Positions 30,001 to 36,000 of a stretch of 64,000 nt of DNA are shown here, piece after piece. The position numbers are program-made. This stretch comes from Escherichia coli (GTDB taxonomy: Bacteria; Pseudomonadota; Gammaproteobacteria; Enterobacterales; Enterobacteriaceae): the NCBI RefSeq assembly GCF_024223415.1, contig NZ_CP100500.1. One strand, written 5' to 3'. Numbering within the stretch: position 1 is the first letter of the stretch; every line of letters starts with the position of its first letter.

Positions 30001-33000
30001 TAGTTCGAAATGTCGCTTCGCTACGTTGTTTTTCCACATTAAGCGGACGAATACGTTTACCAACCTTATGGGTAAATAAAGTTCCACCGATCACAATGAG
30101 CACGACGGTATAGACCATATACCCCTGGATATTCCATTCTGTTCCACCAACAGTGAATGAGAGCGTACCCGCGCTTTGCCAAAGAATAACGGTAAAGGTG
30201 ATCAGCATGCTAAGTGACTGGATGAAGCCAAATGAAAGACTGAGCGTTTTGCTGATCAGTAAGAGAATGTCTTCAGCGATACGTTGGTCAGGGTTATCTG
30301 TATTTTTATGCTCGCCGTAGATCTGCGTGAAGTAGTAGTTTTTATCTGCAAACCACCGATTAAGGTAGTAATCTGTTAACCATTCGCGCCAGCGAATAGT
30401 CAGCAGTTTAATTAACCATGTTTTGTTTACGGATATTAATACAAAGATCCCCAGCAGGGCAGGGAACCAAAGGACAAGCTGCCAAAGCTTATCGGTTTCT
30501 TTCTGGCTTAGCGCATTGAAAAAATCATTATTCCAGTCGTTTAACCAGACCTGAATTTTAACCACGCCAAGGATCATGGCGAGGATAATAATGATTAACA
30601 ACACTGAAGTTTTATTATTCTTACGCAGCCAAAATGGCTTCAGCAGACAGAGATACTTTGCTATCAACATACAAAAAGTAATGGGAATGGTTATCATTAG
30701 CGAAAATTGATTGTGCCATCCAATGATTATCTATGGCAATGATTTACTGATGAAATTTATTTAAGTATCATTTAACAATATGAAATATAGGGAAATTTTT
30801 AATTTTCAATGGTTATGGTTATGCTATTGATAATCAAGGGTATTGCTAATGCCCTGACGCATACCACGTAAGCCAGAATTTTCGCAAGGGAAGATGATGA
30901 TGACGAAACACCCTACAGGAATTTATGTCGGGTGTCTTGTTAAGGCCATAAGAAGGAGGCTAAGACTGGAGCAAAGAGGGAGCGTTATTAATTATTCTCC
31001 ATTTGTTTTGCAACATCCATAATGTGGTAAAGCGGTACTCTATTCTTGGCTAACTCCACCATGGCGTTCATATAAGGTACCATGGTTGAAAAAAGGATTT
31101 TATAACCTTCGCAAAAATAGGAAACAGTCTCATCGTTTACTTTAGTAATACGATGCTTAGGGCAACCGCCATTGCAGATAGGTTTATATGCACATTGCTG
31201 ACATTTCGCTGAAATCCGTTTTTTTTGCGCTGTCAGTTGTACACTGTTCATCGTTTTAAGTTCAGATTTATTAATGTTTCCAATTTTGTACTGTGGATAG
31301 ACAAAATGGTCGCATTCGTAAATGTCTCCATTACTTTCAACAACCAGATTATCCTTGCAGGACTCCTGGAAAATACAACTGGTATGCCCATTCCCCAAAA
31401 AACGGCTGACAAAGCTTTCAAACTGACGGATGAAAACTTCACCCACATCGTTTTTAACCCATTGCATAAAAATGGTTGACATAAACTTGCCATAAGCCGT
31501 GGGAGGCACAGAAAAATCAATGATACGGAATGTGTTCTCACTATGACCACTGAAATCAATATTCGGCGTCCCGGTTTCTAGCAATTCGATAAATTGCATA
31601 TGTTTACTGCCGATAGATTTTAAAAAATGATAAACCTCAAGAGGGTAATGGACATTAACATTATTAATGACGGTTAACGTATTAAACTCTACTTGATATG
31701 ATTTCAGACGCTCGATGGCTGCTATCACTTTTGCAAAAGTACCATTACCTGAATTACTGCGTCTGTAACGGTCATGTAGCTCCTGGGGTCCATCGATCGA
31801 GATACCAACCAGAAATTCATGTTCTTTGAGAAAGGCACACCATTCATTATTCAATAAAATGCCATTCGTTTGTAATGCATTAAAAATACGTTTTTGGCCT
31901 GCATAGCGTTGTTGATAGTGAATAACTTTACGGAAAAAATCCAGGCCAGCCAGAGTGGGTTCACCGCCTTGCCAGGTAAAATAGACCTGATTGCCAGACG
32001 CTGCGATATATTGTTTGATGAACTCTTTCAGAGTGCTGTCATCCATCCATTTTTCATGAGTAAACTGCGACTCTTTTTCAAGGTAAAAACAGTAATCACA
32101 TTTGAGATTACATTGAAAACTGGAGGGCTTGGCTGTAACGTGCATCGCTATCTCGCTCAATAAGGCGGCGGAAAATTCCGCCGCATGAAGGTTTAGTTAT
32201 TTCGCTTCGCTTAGTGCTTTCTTGATATTGTTAAACTTCTCCTGATTTACCTCGCTAAGCGGTGGCTGGCTGCTGTCGATAAACTCTCTTACCACGCCTT
32301 GCATCTCTTTAACGACCTGCGGATTGGCGGCGGCAAGGTTATCTTTTTGCTGTAGATCCGTCAGTTTGTAGAGACCTAACTGATTGTTTTCTACTGTATA
32401 GACAAGCGAATAATCGTTATTTCTCACCGTATAAGAGAATTGGCTTAAGTCCTCAGTGTTGGGGTTATGCGGGTAATCGTCTGACTGATGACGGACAAAT
32501 TTGTGGTAATTATCCCAGAATGGAATATTTTCCTCATCAAACCAGTGAGAATAAGAGGTTATCCAGGTCAGATTTTTATGTGGCTCGCCTTGTTTCTTAT
32601 CTTGCAACCAGGGCAGCAAGGAAACGCCATCCAGCTTAAGGTCTTTTGGAATGCTGATATCGGCTGCATCAAGAGCTGTCGGGTAGAAATCCATTGCGGA
32701 AATCAGCTTGTCATAATTACCGGGTTGAAGTTTTCCTTTCCACCACATAAACATTGGGGTGTGAGTACCGCCAGGATAGGTCTGACTCTTATAGCCTTTT
32801 TGCGCCCCGTTCAGCGGCAGAGGGCCATCGATAACCGCACCATTATCGGAGGTAAAGAGAATAATTGTATTGTCATACTGTCCGTTTTTCTTCAGTTGTT
32901 CGAGAATGCGTTTTACACCCTGATCAACAGAATAAACGGAAGCGTAGTAGTTATCTGCTGTTTGACTACCGGTATTAAATTGCTTCTGATATTGCTCCGG

Positions 33001-36000
33001 TGCAGGATTATCATTTGGCAGGTGCGGAGCATTATAAGCCAGGTAAAGCATAAAAGGCTGGTCAAGTGTTTTGGCACGATCAACAACGCCAATTGCCTCA
33101 TCGGTTAACTGATCGCTGATATAACCTTTTGCGGGGACACGTTCACGATTTTTGAACAGTGAAGGGGAGTTGTAATATGCCGTTCCTGCAGCGTGGAATC
33201 CCATAAAGTAATCAAAGCCACGGTTTTGCGGTTGCCATTCTTCCGCAGAAAATGTGGTGAAGTTGTCATGATAGTCACGTGTTTGTTTATCTTCCGGTAC
33301 CGGCACATTACTGATTTTTGACAAGTGCCATTTACCTACTGCTGCAGTGTAATAACCATGATTCTGGAATAATTCAGGCAAGAAAGTTTCTGTTAGCGGA
33401 ATACCATCCTGAGCATCAGTATTGGAATAGACACCAAAGCGGGCGGGCGCTCGACCGGTCATTATTGCGGCGCGGGAGGGGCCGGAAACACCGTGCGCCA
33501 CATAGCCGTTAGTAAAACGTACGCCTTCATCCATTAATGAAAGGAGCGTCGGCGTTGATTTTTGCGCAGCTTCAATGGCTTTATCTATCCCTATTTTGTA
33601 GGTATCGACAACTTCACGATTTTCCATTGTTTTTGGGTCAAAAGATCCCTTATCAAAAGGAAGTTGTCCATAACCAAGATCATCCATGGTCAGTACGATA
33701 ATATTTGGCTTTCCTTTGGTACTGTATTCAGTCGGCGTAAAGTCTGAGAAAGCAACGTTTGTTTTGGTTGCTTTCAGCTTTACATCATCTGCCGCATGAG
33801 CAGCAAATGCAGCCATACCAGATGCCAGTATCAAAGATATCGAGGTACTTACGACACTTTTCTTTAATGCAGACTTCATAAATGTTCCTCTTCTTATTGT
33901 ACTTAATTCCAAAGTAATTTTACGAAGAGAAATAAGTGGATATAAGTGAAGTTAGTCACATATATAGATAGCAGATTTAGCTAAAAAAAGGGAAATAACA
34001 GTCCATAAAGCGTTGACATTACTTTCTGTGCTACCAAGTAATTTCTCGATGATAAACAACTAATCTATTGATATTTAATAAATTATTGTATTTTTGCTGA
34101 CAAAACGCCGAATTGAGATCATAAATAATCATGCAACAGGTTATGCAAATGCATAAATATGTGATGTATGTCACTTATTTATTTCAATAAATATATCGCC
34201 TAAAAACAACGCGGGGCAGTGAATGGCTGCCCCATTTAATTCTTACGTAGCGTGTGTGGTTGACTACTCGTTAGCAAATAATCAAATAGCTAAAGCATTC
34301 ATCGTGTTGCCCGTATTCATACCCGTGTGCCTTTGACAACGGTACTCCTTAGAAACTCTCTTCGGACTGTTGCCGAAATGTTTGCGGAACGCATAAATAA
34401 AATAAGATGTACTGGCATAACCACATTGTTCGGCAATTTTATTGACTGAACCTTCTACGCGTATCAAATTTTTTGCGTGCTGCATTCTGGCATCTAAAAG
34501 AATCTGTGAGAATGTCGTTTGCTCTTGCTTTAGTTTTTTCTTCAACAGGCTTTCACTGATGTACAGGCAGTCACAAATATCTTTCAGCTTCCATGGGTGC
34601 GCCAGCTTCATGTTGACAATATTTCTCACTTTCCCCGAAACGGATAGCACACCGTTAGTTAATAGTGTAATGAAACCTTTGCATGTGGCAAAAATAGACA
34701 GGCAAGAAAAAAGCAAAAGTTCTGAAAAATTATGATGATTGCGTTCTTCCGAGTTGAGATAAGCAATCATTTCATTAAGCAATCCAGTCGGTACATTAGA
34801 AGCACGTAAAAACTTCGCAGGAACAGGCATCGTCACTGTCTGGATGTTAGTGCATTGTAGATATTTTTTAATGGTATTTTCATTAAATCCGATTTCTTTA
34901 AAATGCCGCTCATAAGGTTCAAAATGCGTACGAACAGCGTTATCTACCATCAGGATCTCGCCGTCAGAGAAGGCGTAATCTTTATCTAAAATGTTAGCGT
35001 TGAAGGCATGATGAATAAATATAACAGAACAAACGAGCGACATTTTATCTCCTTAAAACAATAAAGTTTTTATCGATACTTTTTTAACATTTCATATTTA
35101 TAATTTGCTGTTTATTTTCAGTCTTGCAAACTATTGATAATGAAATGTGTAAGATCTCTTGCAATGCGACCCATTTCTGAGATGCCCAGCTGATCAATTG
35201 CCGAAAAAATGGCTATCAACGTAAGGGTCAGTAATAAGACAACCACAATTACAGACATGATCTCTTTATAGTTGTCTCTTTGCGTGATTTTGTTTTTCAC
35301 TGTGGTCGCATGCATTTCAAATATGTTTATTTAGCGGATAACGTTAAAAATCATTAATCAGTATGCTTAATATAACAGGCTGGAGAAAAGAGGAAATAGG
35401 ACTGGTGCTTCAGTACTGAGCGGAGTTTCTTACAGCTGTAGGCAGAAGTTTATATCTTATAGTATGTAGTTTAATTTAATCCATGTGAGCAAATTGCGCG
35501 ATAATAGTCAATGAGGAATTCTTCTGCTGTGCGGATGACAGCAGAAGAAATGAGAAGAGGCATTAATTTGATGGTTCTAATTCAACCGGAATACTTTTAT
35601 AGCCAGGAATGCCACTTAATGGATCGTGGTTATCAAGTGTTAGCATGTGATTCGATTCTGGAAAATAGGTCACCAGTGAGCGGTCAGCCATAGGGTAAAT
35701 GACCACTTTTAATCTATCCATGCGGCGTGAGCTGCGCTTACCGTCTGGCGTAAGCGCAATAAGATTAACTCTTTCGCCGTTTTTTACACGGCAAATTTTA
35801 GCTTGTTTAGCACTCATAAAGACCACATCTCGTTGACCGAATACCCCTCGATAGCGATCATCCATACCATAAATCGTCGTGTTGTACTGATCGTGGCTGC
35901 GTACTGTCGCCATGACCAGCTTACTGTTAAACGCTGAAGAGGGATCTTCTAACAGCCCTTTGCTGGTAATGAAATTAGCCTTACCTGACGGCGTCATCCA

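What the first reader, a model, noticed from the sequence alone, without database searches (positions are those of the whole stretch)
30988..33879. Cryptic sulfatase pair: Ser-type sulfatase YdeN with radical-SAM maturase homologue YdeM
YdeN carries S-G-P-S-R at the position of the sulfatase C/S-x-P-x-R signature, making it a Ser-type enzyme that needs formylglycine generation. YdeM has a Cx3Cx2C radical-SAM motif at residues 12-19 plus C-terminal cysteine clusters, typical of anaerobic sulfatase-maturating enzymes. Unusually for an enzyme-maturase pair, the sulfatase gene comes first. The natural substrate and inducing condition are not evident from sequence.
Basis: partly seen in the sequence, partly recalled or inferred. 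Interest (0 to 1): 0.35.

Follow-up and report, generated by a model that had tools for sequence, protein, structure and literature searches.

The report
E. coli ydeN-ydeM sulfatase and maturase operon
This is the already annotated E. coli ydeN-ydeM gene pair, a periplasmic serine-type sulfatase followed by the radical-SAM enzyme predicted to activate it; it is real and conserved but not new, and only its natural substrate remains unknown.

Summary
Window 30988-33879 (minus strand) holds ydeN (560 aa, Pfam Sulfatase 1.3e-70, S132-G-P-S-R136) followed by ydeM (385 aa, NCBIfam anaerobic sulfatase maturase 505 bits against a cutoff of 349, C12x3C16x2C19 plus eight C-terminal SPASM cysteines). SGPSR aligns onto the CGPSR formylglycine motif of solved S1_19 sulfatases.

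The window is E. coli chromosome. The locus is present in 5322 of 5426 complete genomes and RefSeq annotates it with these names. The pair has been discussed in the literature since 1998 and 2007.

Two side claims fail.
- The sulfatase-first order is not unusual. All seven YdeN-ortholog lineages and two unrelated Cys-type pairs show it. Two other pairs have the maturase first, and E. coli aslB/aslA is convergent.
- The locus is not silent. Published data show CRP binding upstream, arabinose-dependent AraC binding and repression, and strong down-regulation at pH 4.4.

The closest solved relatives are galactose-4-sulfate (carrageenan) sulfatases, not GlcNAc-6-sulfatase.

One small new point: every sulfatase-to-maturase spacer examined (nine lineages, unrelated sequences) carries a stable hairpin. 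This may be a leaky terminator that lowers maturase expression.

Verdict: already known, low interest.

The parts
32197..33879 (-). ydeN coding sequence: 560-aa Ser-type S1 (formylglycine-dependent) sulfatase precursor
   Evidence: ORF. Pfam PF00884 1.3e-70. RefSeq 'ydeN sulfatase-like hydrolase/transferase' WP_001303114.1 in a 100%-identical genome. Best solved relatives are S1_19 sulfatases at 3e-52.
33793..33879 (-). Predicted Sec-type signal peptide of YdeN (residues 1-29, MKSALKKSVVSTSISLILASGMAAFAAHA, A-H-A cleavage motif, no twin arginine)
   Evidence: Read directly from the translation. One search lists ydeN as periplasmic. The signal-peptide call is inference from sequence features; no predictor was run.
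33472..33486 (-). Formylglycine signature S132-G-P-S-R136; Ser132 is the residue predicted to be oxidised
   Evidence: It aligns onto CGPSR/SGPSR of PDB 9hh3/9hh2 and CGPSR of 6bia. It is invariant in 118 of 120 listed homologues; the other two lack the motif.
32165..32184 (-). Intercistronic GC-rich hairpin GCGGCGGAATTTTCCGCCGC, 12 nt after the ydeN stop and 19 nt before the ydeM ATG
   Evidence: An 8-bp stem with a 4-nt loop; the spacer folds at about -18 kcal/mol, z -2.4. Hairpins of unrelated sequence sit in the same place in eight other sulfatase-to-maturase spacers. The terminator scan did not call it because the T-tract is weak.
30988..32145 (-). ydeM coding sequence: 385-aa radical-SAM/SPASM anaerobic sulfatase-maturating enzyme homologue
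   Evidence: TIGR03942 at 505 bits against a cutoff of 349. 4e-63 to anSMEcpe 4k36 over residues 4-359. RefSeq 'ydeM anaerobic sulfatase maturase'.
32089..32112 (-). Radical-SAM cluster motif C12-x3-C16-x2-C19 of YdeM
   Evidence: It aligns with CNLKCTYC of anSMEcpe.
31111..31377 (-). SPASM region with eight cysteines (C257, C263, C278, C315, C318, C324, C328, C345) for two auxiliary [4Fe-4S] clusters; includes C278-D279
   Evidence: Every cysteine and the Cys-Asp pair align with anSMEcpe. Pfam SPASM 3.5e-6.
34160..34175 (-). Distal CRP-binding site AGTGACATACATCACA, about 290 bp upstream of the ydeN ATG
   Evidence: A 1-mismatch match to TGTGA-N6-TCACA. It corresponds to the published ydeN CRP site TGTGATGGATGTCACT, seen by ChIP-seq in ETEC and by footprint-seq with an estimated Kd of 1.8 nM; ydeN is also among the CRP genomic-SELEX targets.
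33945..33960 (-). Proximal CRP-like site TGTGACTAACTTCACT, centred about 42 bp upstream of a TSS predicted from the TAAAAT -10-like hexamer at 33917-33922
   Evidence: two of the four 1-mismatch matches in the 64-kb window lie in this 400-bp spacer. Hexamer positions were read. The promoter assignment is inference and is not experimentally supported here.
33886..33892 (-). Shine-Dalgarno AAGAGGA, 6 nt upstream of the ydeN ATG
   Evidence: It supports ATG 33879 over the upstream TTG at 33912 listed.
34212..34234 (-). Intrinsic terminator of the upstream ydeO gene, which makes ydeN-ydeM a separate transcription unit
   Evidence: 8-bp stem with 6 GC pairs, followed by CGTTGTTTTT.

Best explanation
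The region is the E. coli ydeN-ydeM operon, a self-contained two-gene cassette. ydeN encodes a Sec-exported periplasmic sulfatase of the formylglycine-dependent S1 family whose catalytic residue is encoded as serine (Ser132 in SGPSR). ydeM encodes a cytoplasmic radical-SAM/SPASM enzyme of the anaerobic sulfatase-maturating (anSME/AtsB) family. The inferred mechanism follows the characterised homologues AtsB and anSMEcpe. YdeM binds three [4Fe-4S] clusters, cleaves S-adenosylmethionine, abstracts a C-beta hydrogen from Ser132 of the still-unfolded YdeN precursor and oxidises it to C-alpha-formylglycine. The precursor is then exported. In the periplasm the hydrated aldehyde and a divalent metal (bound by D66, D67, D345, N346) hydrolyse a sulfate ester. 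The substrate is most probably a sulfated sugar, because the nearest solved relatives are galactose-4-sulfate (carrageenan) sulfatases. Transcription starts in the AT-rich spacer after the ydeO terminator. CRP binds there, and AraC binds there in the presence of arabinose. A hairpin after the ydeN stop probably lets only part of the transcripts continue into ydeM. Shown here: gene identities, motifs, conserved residues, conserved gene order and the hairpin. Inferred: formylglycine formation by YdeM, the substrate class, and the role of the hairpin.
For: Identity of the locus: 100% identical to E. coli SCU-316 and present in 5322/5426 complete genomes; RefSeq names ydeN and ydeM. Sulfatase: PF00884 1.3e-70. 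SGPSR aligns to the FGly motif of S1_19 structures, and GKWH, APH, SDNG and the KGxK lysine also align. D66, D67, S132, R136, K183, H185, H286, D345, N346 and K364 are invariant across 15 orthologues of 69-84% identity. Maturase: TIGR03942 is above its cutoff. There is a full-length alignment to anSMEcpe 4k36 (4e-63) with all 11 cluster cysteines, the GGEP SAM-binding motif and the Cys-Asp pair conserved. Functional linkage: the sulfatase-to-maturase pair is kept together with a 42-222 nt spacer in seven lineages with otherwise unrelated neighbours: E. coli, Yersinia, Aeromonas, a metagenome contig with a PTS, Anaerobiospirillum, Iodobacter and a mobile element. Ser is invariant in the clade. 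Ser-type enzymes occur only in facultative or strict anaerobes (SulfAtlas paper). Regulation and expression. Literature treating the pair as sulfatase plus anSME.
Against: The only genetic study found (Benjdia et al. 2007, seen only by its title) concerns a third maturation system inferred from aslB and ydeM deletion mutants. YdeN reaches no NCBIfam equivalog cutoff (best 124 bits against 481), so its specificity is unassigned. E. coli has a second maturase, AslB, 41% identical to YdeM, which could substitute. The hairpin lacks a good U-tract in E. coli and its z-score is modest (-2.4; -1.26 in a longer context). The structure prediction failed (pLDDT 44.5), so no pocket analysis was possible.
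Confidence: 0.87

Rival explanations
1. YdeN is not a sulfatase but another alkaline-phosphatase-superfamily hydrolase or transferase (a phosphonate monoester hydrolase, phosphodiesterase or phosphoethanolamine-transferase-like enzyme). The RefSeq name 'sulfatase-like hydrolase/transferase' leaves this open.
For: There is a secondary Pfam hit to PF01663 Phosphodiest at 1.3e-7. No NCBIfam sulfatase equivalog cutoff is reached, and there are weak hits to PehA, LtaS and YejM models.
Against: All ten top PDB relatives are carbohydrate sulfatases. The complete FGly signature and the sulfate-binding Lys/His residues are invariant. The obligatory neighbour is an anSME. The transferase-type relatives named here (LtaS, YejM) are not formylglycine enzymes and need no maturase (established knowledge).
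Confidence: 0.05
2. YdeM is not the YdeN maturase but a peptide-modifying radical-SAM/SPASM enzyme (RiPP maturase of the DynA/DarE/cyclophane type) or an enzyme with another substrate. YdeN would then be matured by AslB or not at all.
For: YdeM also hits DynA (219 bits), DarW, DarE and YhhB models. AslB is a 41%-identical paralogue in the same genome. A third maturation system has been inferred in E. coli (title of Benjdia 2007).
Against: Those RiPP models are all far below their cutoffs (219 against 450 and so on), whereas TIGR03942 is well above its own. No precursor-peptide ORF lies beside ydeM. ydeM-like genes follow ydeN-like genes in seven lineages with no other shared neighbour.
Confidence: 0.05
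3. The pair is an evolutionary remnant: intact-looking reading frames that are silenced or no longer functional in E. coli ('cryptic' in the strict sense).
For: The locus has low G+C (0.37-0.45) and lies next to the low-GC ydeO-safA island. No activity has been reported. Occasional disruption is seen, for example an IS2 in ydeM of strain PK5086 (H6).
Against: It is kept in 98% of complete E. coli genomes at 95-100% identity. Catalytic residues are invariant across genera. It is transcribed and regulated, its upstream region is bound by CRP and AraC, and the protein has been detected.
Confidence: 0.04

Closest known systems
Klebsiella pneumoniae AtsA/AtsB (Ser-type arylsulfatase and its radical-SAM maturase)
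   Same: Both are periplasmic Ser-type S1 sulfatases whose serine is converted to formylglycine by an adjacent iron-sulfur radical-SAM enzyme, in a facultative anaerobic enterobacterium (the Miech 1998 title is cited; the rest is from established knowledge).
   Different: In Klebsiella the maturase gene precedes the sulfatase (from memory, not tested here), whereas here the sulfatase comes first. YdeN is only distantly related to arylsulfatases of the AslA/AtsA type (27% identity to E. coli AslA). No activity has been shown for YdeN or YdeM.
Clostridium perfringens anSMEcpe (PDB 4k36-4k39)
   Same: YdeM aligns over residues 4-359 at E=4e-63. It has the CX3CX2C motif, the GGEP motif, all eight auxiliary-cluster cysteines and the Cys-Asp pair.
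   Different: The match to anSMEcpe's own model is well below its cutoff (NF010321 256 bits against 441). YdeM is paired with a Ser-type substrate.
SulfAtlas subfamily S1_19 (iota- and kappa-carrageenan galactose-4-sulfate sulfatases; PDB 9hh2/9hh3, 6bia, 6b0j/k, 6psm)
   Same: These are the best-scoring solved relatives of YdeN (E 3e-52 to 3e-42 over residues 105-439), with an identical xGPSR signature context, AH(P/G)(F/V)[CS]GPSR.
   Different: They are Cys-type enzymes of marine algal-polysaccharide degraders. YdeN is Ser-type, has about 28 extra residues (81-108) between the DDLGY metal-binding motif and the FGly helix, and has a longer C-terminal domain. Subfamily membership was not tested phylogenetically.
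E. coli AslA/AslB
   Same: This is the second Ser-type sulfatase (SSPTR) next to a second anSME homologue in the same genome.
   Different: The genes are convergent rather than tandem. AslA is 27% identical to YdeN and AslB is 41% identical to YdeM.
Bacteroides thetaiotaomicron BT4656 GlcNAc-6-O-sulfatase (PDB 5g2v)
   Same: It is an S1 carbohydrate sulfatase of a gut bacterium and was proposed as the YdeN analogue in the mSystems 2024 paper.
   Different: It is a much weaker match (3e-30) than the S1_19 enzymes (3e-52), so the GlcNAc-6-sulfate suggestion is not the best-supported one.

Membership tests
S1 formylglycine-dependent sulfatases (Pfam PF00884 / SulfAtlas S1) | Alkaline-phosphatase-like sulfatase domain | tested here: met
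   PF00884 E=1.3e-70, residues 58-408 covering profile positions 1-301 of 301.
S1 formylglycine-dependent sulfatases (Pfam PF00884 / SulfAtlas S1) | [C/S]-x-P-x-R signature at the catalytic position, followed by xxx(L/M)TG | tested here: met
   S132-G-P-S-R-AAIMTG aligns onto CGPSR of 9hh3 and 6bia.
S1 formylglycine-dependent sulfatases (Pfam PF00884 / SulfAtlas S1) | Metal-binding Asp-Asp and Asp-Asn pairs, and sulfate-binding Lys/His residues | tested here: met
   D66, D67, K183, H185, H286, D345, N346 and K364 are invariant in 15 orthologues and align with the DDLGY, GKWH, APH, SDNG and KGxK motifs of solved sulfatases.
S1 formylglycine-dependent sulfatases (Pfam PF00884 / SulfAtlas S1) | Formylglycine actually present, and sulfate-ester hydrolysis | not testable with these tools
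   This needs mass spectrometry and enzyme assays. No report of either was found in the held literature.
SulfAtlas subfamily S1_19 | Phylogenetic placement inside the S1_19 clade | not tested
   There is only best-hit evidence: the five best PDB sequences are S1_19, 3e-52 to 3.5e-50, against 5e-39 for S1_16. No tree was built.
SulfAtlas subfamily S1_19 | Galactose-4-sulfate specificity pocket | tested here: inconclusive
Anaerobic sulfatase-maturating enzymes (anSME / AtsB; NCBIfam TIGR03942) | Equivalog model score above the curated cutoff | tested here: met
   505.4 bits against a cutoff of 349.45, residues 2-364 covering profile positions 1-362 of 363.
Anaerobic sulfatase-maturating enzymes (anSME / AtsB; NCBIfam TIGR03942) | N-terminal CX3CX2C radical-SAM cluster motif and GGEP SAM-binding motif | tested here: met
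   C12, C16, C19. QGGEPTL aligns with anSMEcpe.
Anaerobic sulfatase-maturating enzymes (anSME / AtsB; NCBIfam TIGR03942) | SPASM domain with eight cysteines for auxiliary clusters I and II | tested here: met
   C257, C263, C278, C315, C318, C324, C328 and C345 all align with cysteines of 4k36. Pfam SPASM 3.5e-6.
Anaerobic sulfatase-maturating enzymes (anSME / AtsB; NCBIfam TIGR03942) | Genomic association with a [C/S]xPxR sulfatase | tested here: met
   It is adjacent to ydeN here and in six other ortholog lineages.
Anaerobic sulfatase-maturating enzymes (anSME / AtsB; NCBIfam TIGR03942) | SAM-dependent oxidation of the motif Ser/Cys to formylglycine | not testable with these tools
   This needs a biochemical assay. 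No such result for YdeM was found in the held literature.

The most novel reading that the evidence does not exclude
Two linked readings remain open. (a) The structurally conserved but sequence-divergent hairpin between sulfatase and maturase genes may be a leaky terminator or RNA-stability element that sets a high sulfatase-to-maturase ratio. That would explain why the sulfatase comes first in this cassette, in contrast to the 10-13 nt coupled spacing of maturase-first pairs. (b) The YdeN clade may be a mobile, self-sufficient periplasmic desulfation module for a sulfated hexose or hexosamine (Gal/GalNAc-4-sulfate-like) released from host mucin, glycosaminoglycans or diet. That would give enterobacteria, Aeromonas and Anaerobiospirillum access to sulfated gut sugars under anaerobic, catabolite-derepressed conditions.
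Probability: 0.25. Interest if true: 0.4.

Novelty: already known. Interest (0 to 1): 0.12.

Why it matters
As a discovery it does not matter: the genes, their family assignments and the enzyme-maturase logic are in RefSeq and in the literature. What remains of interest is practical. YdeN is one of only a few E. coli sulfatase homologues and its substrate is unknown. ydeM was up-regulated in a gut-adapted-type triple mutant in mice on a high-fibre diet. ydeN was the only gene induced by the azo dye FD&C Red No. 40. Knowing the substrate would clarify whether commensal and pathogenic enterobacteria desulfate host or dietary glycans themselves. E. coli's maturation capacity also matters to anyone expressing recombinant Ser-type sulfatases in E. 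coli.

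Tried and rejected
- **AraC half-site scan.** TAGC-N7-TCCATA with up to 3 mismatches gave 428 matches against 431 expected, which is uninformative. I could not locate the published AraC site by eye in 33880-34281, and the Stringer 2014 paper is not held.
- **Promoter and terminator scan of 30700-34400.** Promoter-like hits were below the shuffle expectation and none lay in the ydeN upstream spacer. Only the ydeO terminator was called.
- **AlphaFold2 of YdeN.** The 15-sequence alignment A1 was too shallow (all sequences at least 69% identical). 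The result was pLDDT 44.5 and pTM 0.47, so it was unusable, and no fold search was run.
- **Rfam scan of 30000-35600.** No family matched, so the hairpin is not a described RNA element.
- **First homologue search.** It timed out and was repeated successfully.
- **Benjdia 2007 FEBS Letters paper.** It is not held, so its content is known here only from its title.
- **GlcNAc-6-sulfatase (BT4656) as closest analogue.** Rejected, because S1_19 enzymes score 22 orders of magnitude better.
- **Degraded maturase next to the E. coli ydeN paralogue.** tblastn of YdeM against L006 found nothing.
- **Genome-wide scan of genome contigs for gene-order statistics.** Not run. Eleven loci from cheaper look-ups already showed both orders.

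Full report
**What is there**

The window is E. coli chromosome. Positions 30700-34300 are 100% identical to strain SCU-316. At least 80% of that stretch is found in 5322 of 5426 complete E. coli genomes, almost all at 95-100% identity. RefSeq annotates the minus-strand genes in this order: ydeP, safA, ydeO, ydeN ('sulfatase-like hydrolase/transferase'), ydeM ('anaerobic sulfatase maturase'), yddA, yddB. The finding's coordinates (30988-33879) run exactly from the ydeM stop codon to the ydeN ATG.

**Check of the observation**

- YdeN (32197-33879, 560 aa) has a single [CS]xPxR motif, S132-G-P-S-R136, and no cysteine at all.
- YdeM (30988-32145, 385 aa) has C12-x3-C16-x2-C19. It also has C257, C263, C278, C315, C318, C324, C328 and C345, including a Cx2Cx5Cx3C block.
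- The family assignments are far beyond chance. Pfam gives Sulfatase 1.3e-70 for YdeN and Radical_SAM 1.8e-22 plus SPASM 3.5e-6 for YdeM. The NCBIfam equivalog TIGR03942 'anaerobic sulfatase maturase' scores 505 bits against a curated cutoff of 349.
I ran it. SGPSR aligns column for column with CGPSR of solved S1_19 sulfatases (9hh3, 6bia) and with the SGPSR variant chain 9hh2. The GKWH, APH, SDNG and KGxK motifs align as well.
- YdeM aligns over residues 4-359 with anSMEcpe (4k36, E=4e-63). All three radical-SAM cysteines, the GGEP motif, all eight auxiliary-cluster cysteines and the Cys-Asp pair are conserved.

**Conservation and linkage**

The 120 best homologues of YdeN are 69-100% identical. 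They come from Escherichia, Leminorella, Salmonella, Citrobacter, Yersinia, Proteus, Shewanella, Aeromonas, Iodobacter and Anaerobiospirillum. Of these, 118 carry SGPSR and the other two lack the motif. In a 15-sequence alignment, D66, D67, S132, R136, K183, H185, H286, D345, N346 and K364 are invariant. These residues correspond to the canonical metal-, formylglycine- and sulfate-binding set of S1 sulfatases.

Seven ortholog lineages were inspected:
- the E. coli window;
- Aeromonas L002;
- Yersinia L004;
- a metagenome contig L011, with mannose-family PTS genes just upstream;
- Anaerobiospirillum L017;
- Iodobacter L019;
- an Enterobacterales island L020, with integrase, ParB and DnaB genes.

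In every one the sulfatase gene is followed on the same strand by a YdeM orthologue, and the other neighbours are unrelated. The pair therefore behaves as a self-sufficient, horizontally mobile two-gene cassette. That is good comparative evidence that the two proteins work together.

**The 'unusual gene order' claim**

I sampled diverse anSME representatives of 38-58% identity to YdeM.
- Two unrelated pairs have a Cys-type sulfatase (CSPSR) followed by the maturase. A Tsx-type channel gene lies upstream (L010, L015).
- Two pairs have the maturase followed by a Ser-type sulfatase, with only 10-13 nt between the genes (L008, L013).
- E. coli's own second pair, aslB and aslA, is convergent. AslA is also Ser-type, with SSPTR.

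Both orders are common, and sulfatase-first was the majority among the loci I looked at. The claim is not supported.

**Expression**

The title word 'cryptic' and the statement that the inducing condition is not evident are only partly right.
- The ydeO terminator at 34212-34234 separates ydeN from ydeO, so ydeN has its own promoter region.
- Two of the four near-consensus CRP sites in the whole 64-kb window fall in this 400-bp spacer, at 34160-34175 and 33945-33960.
- The distal site corresponds to the published ydeN CRP site. That site was found by ChIP-seq in ETEC and by footprint-seq with an estimated Kd of 1.8 nM, and ydeN is listed among the CRP genomic-SELEX targets.
- AraC binds upstream of ydeN only in the presence of arabinose. 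An araC deletion strain highly expresses ydeMN, and ydeM and ydeN are described as co-transcribed (citing Stringer 2014).
- ydeN mRNA drops 5.3 log2 units at pH 4.4, alongside mal, xyl and tre genes.
- ydeN was the only gene induced by the azo dye FD&C Red No. 40.
- YdeN protein was detected in O157 grown anaerobically in rumen fluid.
- ydeM was up-regulated in a gatC araC malI triple-deletion strain, relative to the gatC deletion strain, in mice on a high-MAC diet.

The operon is regulated and expressed, not silent.

**How it most likely works**

*Shown here:* the gene identities, the motifs, the conserved catalytic residues and the conserved pairing.

*Inferred from the characterised homologues AtsB and anSMEcpe (established knowledge of the family):*
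1. YdeM assembles three [4Fe-4S] clusters and reductively cleaves SAM.
2. It abstracts a C-beta hydrogen from Ser132 of unfolded pre-YdeN and oxidises it to formylglycine in the cytoplasm.
3. YdeN has a Sec-type signal peptide (residues 1-29, A-H-A cleavage motif, no twin arginine; read from the sequence). It is exported and hydrolyses a sulfate ester in the periplasm.

The serine type fits an oxygen-independent route. Ser-type enzymes make up 21% of S1 sulfatases and are restricted to facultative or strict anaerobes.

*Substrate.* No NCBIfam sulfatase equivalog cutoff is reached, so specificity is unassigned. The closest solved relatives are S1_19 galactose-4-sulfate (iota- and kappa-carrageenan) sulfatases, at 3e-52 to 3e-42. 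They are well ahead of GALNS (2e-34) and of the GlcNAc-6-sulfatase BT4656 (3e-30) that a 2024 paper proposed as the analogue. In other lineages the cassette sits next to outer-membrane channel genes (a porin near the Aeromonas orthologue, L002) or next to a mannose-family PTS. This points to a small sulfated sugar that is desulfated in the periplasm before uptake. This is a lead, not a demonstration.

**A small new observation**

In all nine sulfatase-to-maturase spacers examined (42-222 nt, unrelated sequences) a stable hairpin sits in the spacer, and in the short spacers (42-69 nt) it lies within about 25 nt of the sulfatase stop codon.
- In E. coli it is GCGGCGGAATTTTCCGCCGC at 32165-32184; the spacer folds at about -18 kcal/mol.
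- For the six spacers that were shuffled, z-scores are -2.4 to -4.7 against mononucleotide shuffles. The structures are shown.
- In three lineages (L011, L015, L009) a T-run follows the hairpin, as in an intrinsic terminator.
- Maturase-first pairs instead have 10-13 nt gaps.
- ydeM also has a weak ribosome-binding site.

A plausible reading is a leaky terminator or RNA-stabilising element that keeps the iron-sulfur maturase at a lower level than the sulfatase. This is untested. The E. coli hairpin lacks a good U-tract, and in a longer context its z-score is only -1.26.

**Rivals**

- YdeN could be a non-sulfatase member of the alkaline-phosphatase superfamily. The support is a weak Phosphodiest hit and the cautious RefSeq name. 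The full FGly signature, the carbohydrate-sulfatase best hits and the obligatory maturase neighbour make this unlikely.
- YdeM could be a RiPP maturase. The secondary hits to the DynA and DarE models are far below their cutoffs, and there is no precursor-peptide ORF nearby.
- The pair could be a decayed remnant. Conservation and regulated expression contradict this.
- AslB, which is 41% identical to YdeM, could share or take over the maturation. This cannot be excluded.

**Comparison with what is known, and novelty**

The pair is annotated with these functions in RefSeq. The literature cites it as sulfatase plus anSME: Schirmer and Kolter 1998, Berteau 2006 and Benjdia 2007 are cited. It is a member of the S1 sulfatase and anSME families on every sequence criterion that I could test. 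Enzymatic activity remains undemonstrated in the literature I could read. The finding is therefore already known. Its remaining interest is the unknown substrate and a possible role in gut colonisation.

**What failed**

- The AraC motif scan was uninformative.
- The AlphaFold model from a shallow alignment was unusable (pLDDT 44.5).
- Rfam found nothing.
- Two key papers are not held, and the paper cap stopped further reading.

Noticed in passing
window 32165-32184 (-); also L002 7681-7738, L004 7672-7728, L011 4238-4293, L009 4944-5000, L015 2508-2549, L017 8663-8884, L019 8672-8740, L020 8675-8716: Every sulfatase-to-maturase intergenic spacer examined holds a stable hairpin soon after the sulfatase stop. 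The sequences are unrelated, and some hairpins are followed by a T-run. Maturase-first pairs have only 10-13 nt gaps. This may be a conserved leaky terminator or RNA-stability element.
   Followed up: partly
window 34160-34175 and 33945-33960: Two of the four near-consensus CRP sites in the 64-kb window lie in the ydeO-ydeN spacer. The distal one matches the published ydeN CRP site. The proximal one sits about 42 bp upstream of a TSS predicted from a TAAAAT hexamer (33917-33922), a class II-like geometry that was not reported in the papers read.
   Followed up: partly
window 30900-31022 (+): A 40-codon ORF ([40 protein letters not shown]) overlaps the 3' end of ydeM on the opposite strand. RefSeq annotates it as a hypothetical protein here and as 'protein YneP' in other strains.
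   Followed up: no
L006 3847-5544 (E. coli contig DANAZC020000064.1) and L007: Some E. coli strains carry a second, 565-aa Ser-type YdeN paralogue (77% identical; its protein cluster has 303 member sequences). A porin gene precedes it, and a strong hairpin and an IS110 transposase follow it. There is no maturase gene and no remnant of one, so it would depend on YdeM or AslB acting in trans.
   Followed up: partly
L020 and L021 (Enterobacterales), L002 and L003 (Aeromonas veronii): The ydeN-ydeM cassette sits inside an integrase/ParB/DnaB island in Enterobacterales, and IS-type transposase genes lie upstream of it in Aeromonas. This suggests the two-gene unit moves horizontally.
   Followed up: no
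L011 460-5475: In a metagenome contig a YdeN orthologue (64% identical) and its maturase directly follow mannose-family PTS genes (EIIC-Sor, EIID-AGA, EIIA-man) on the same strand. This hints that the desulfated product is a hexose or hexosamine.
   Followed up: no
window 33556-33639 (YdeN residues 81-108): YdeN and its orthologues have about 28 extra residues between the DDLGY metal-binding motif and the formylglycine helix, relative to S1_19 structures. The segment is well conserved within the clade, but its role is unknown.
   Followed up: no
window 32197-33879 (YdeN) and homologues P0001-P0120: YdeN contains no cysteine at all, and neither do 80 of the 120 listed homologues.
   Followed up: no
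window 30250-32000 and 33500-35750: G+C drops to 0.33-0.40 over ydeM, the ydeN upstream spacer and ydeO-safA, against 0.45-0.54 in the flanks. This is consistent with horizontally acquired, H-NS-type DNA.
   Followed up: no
one search hits H6, H11 and the plasmid count: Strain PK5086 has an IS2 inserted in ydeM. In an ST131 strain (H11) the match begins only at query position 279 and an M16-family metallopeptidase gene lies under the match, so the region next to ydeM is rearranged. Eight matches to the locus lie on plasmids.
   Followed up: no
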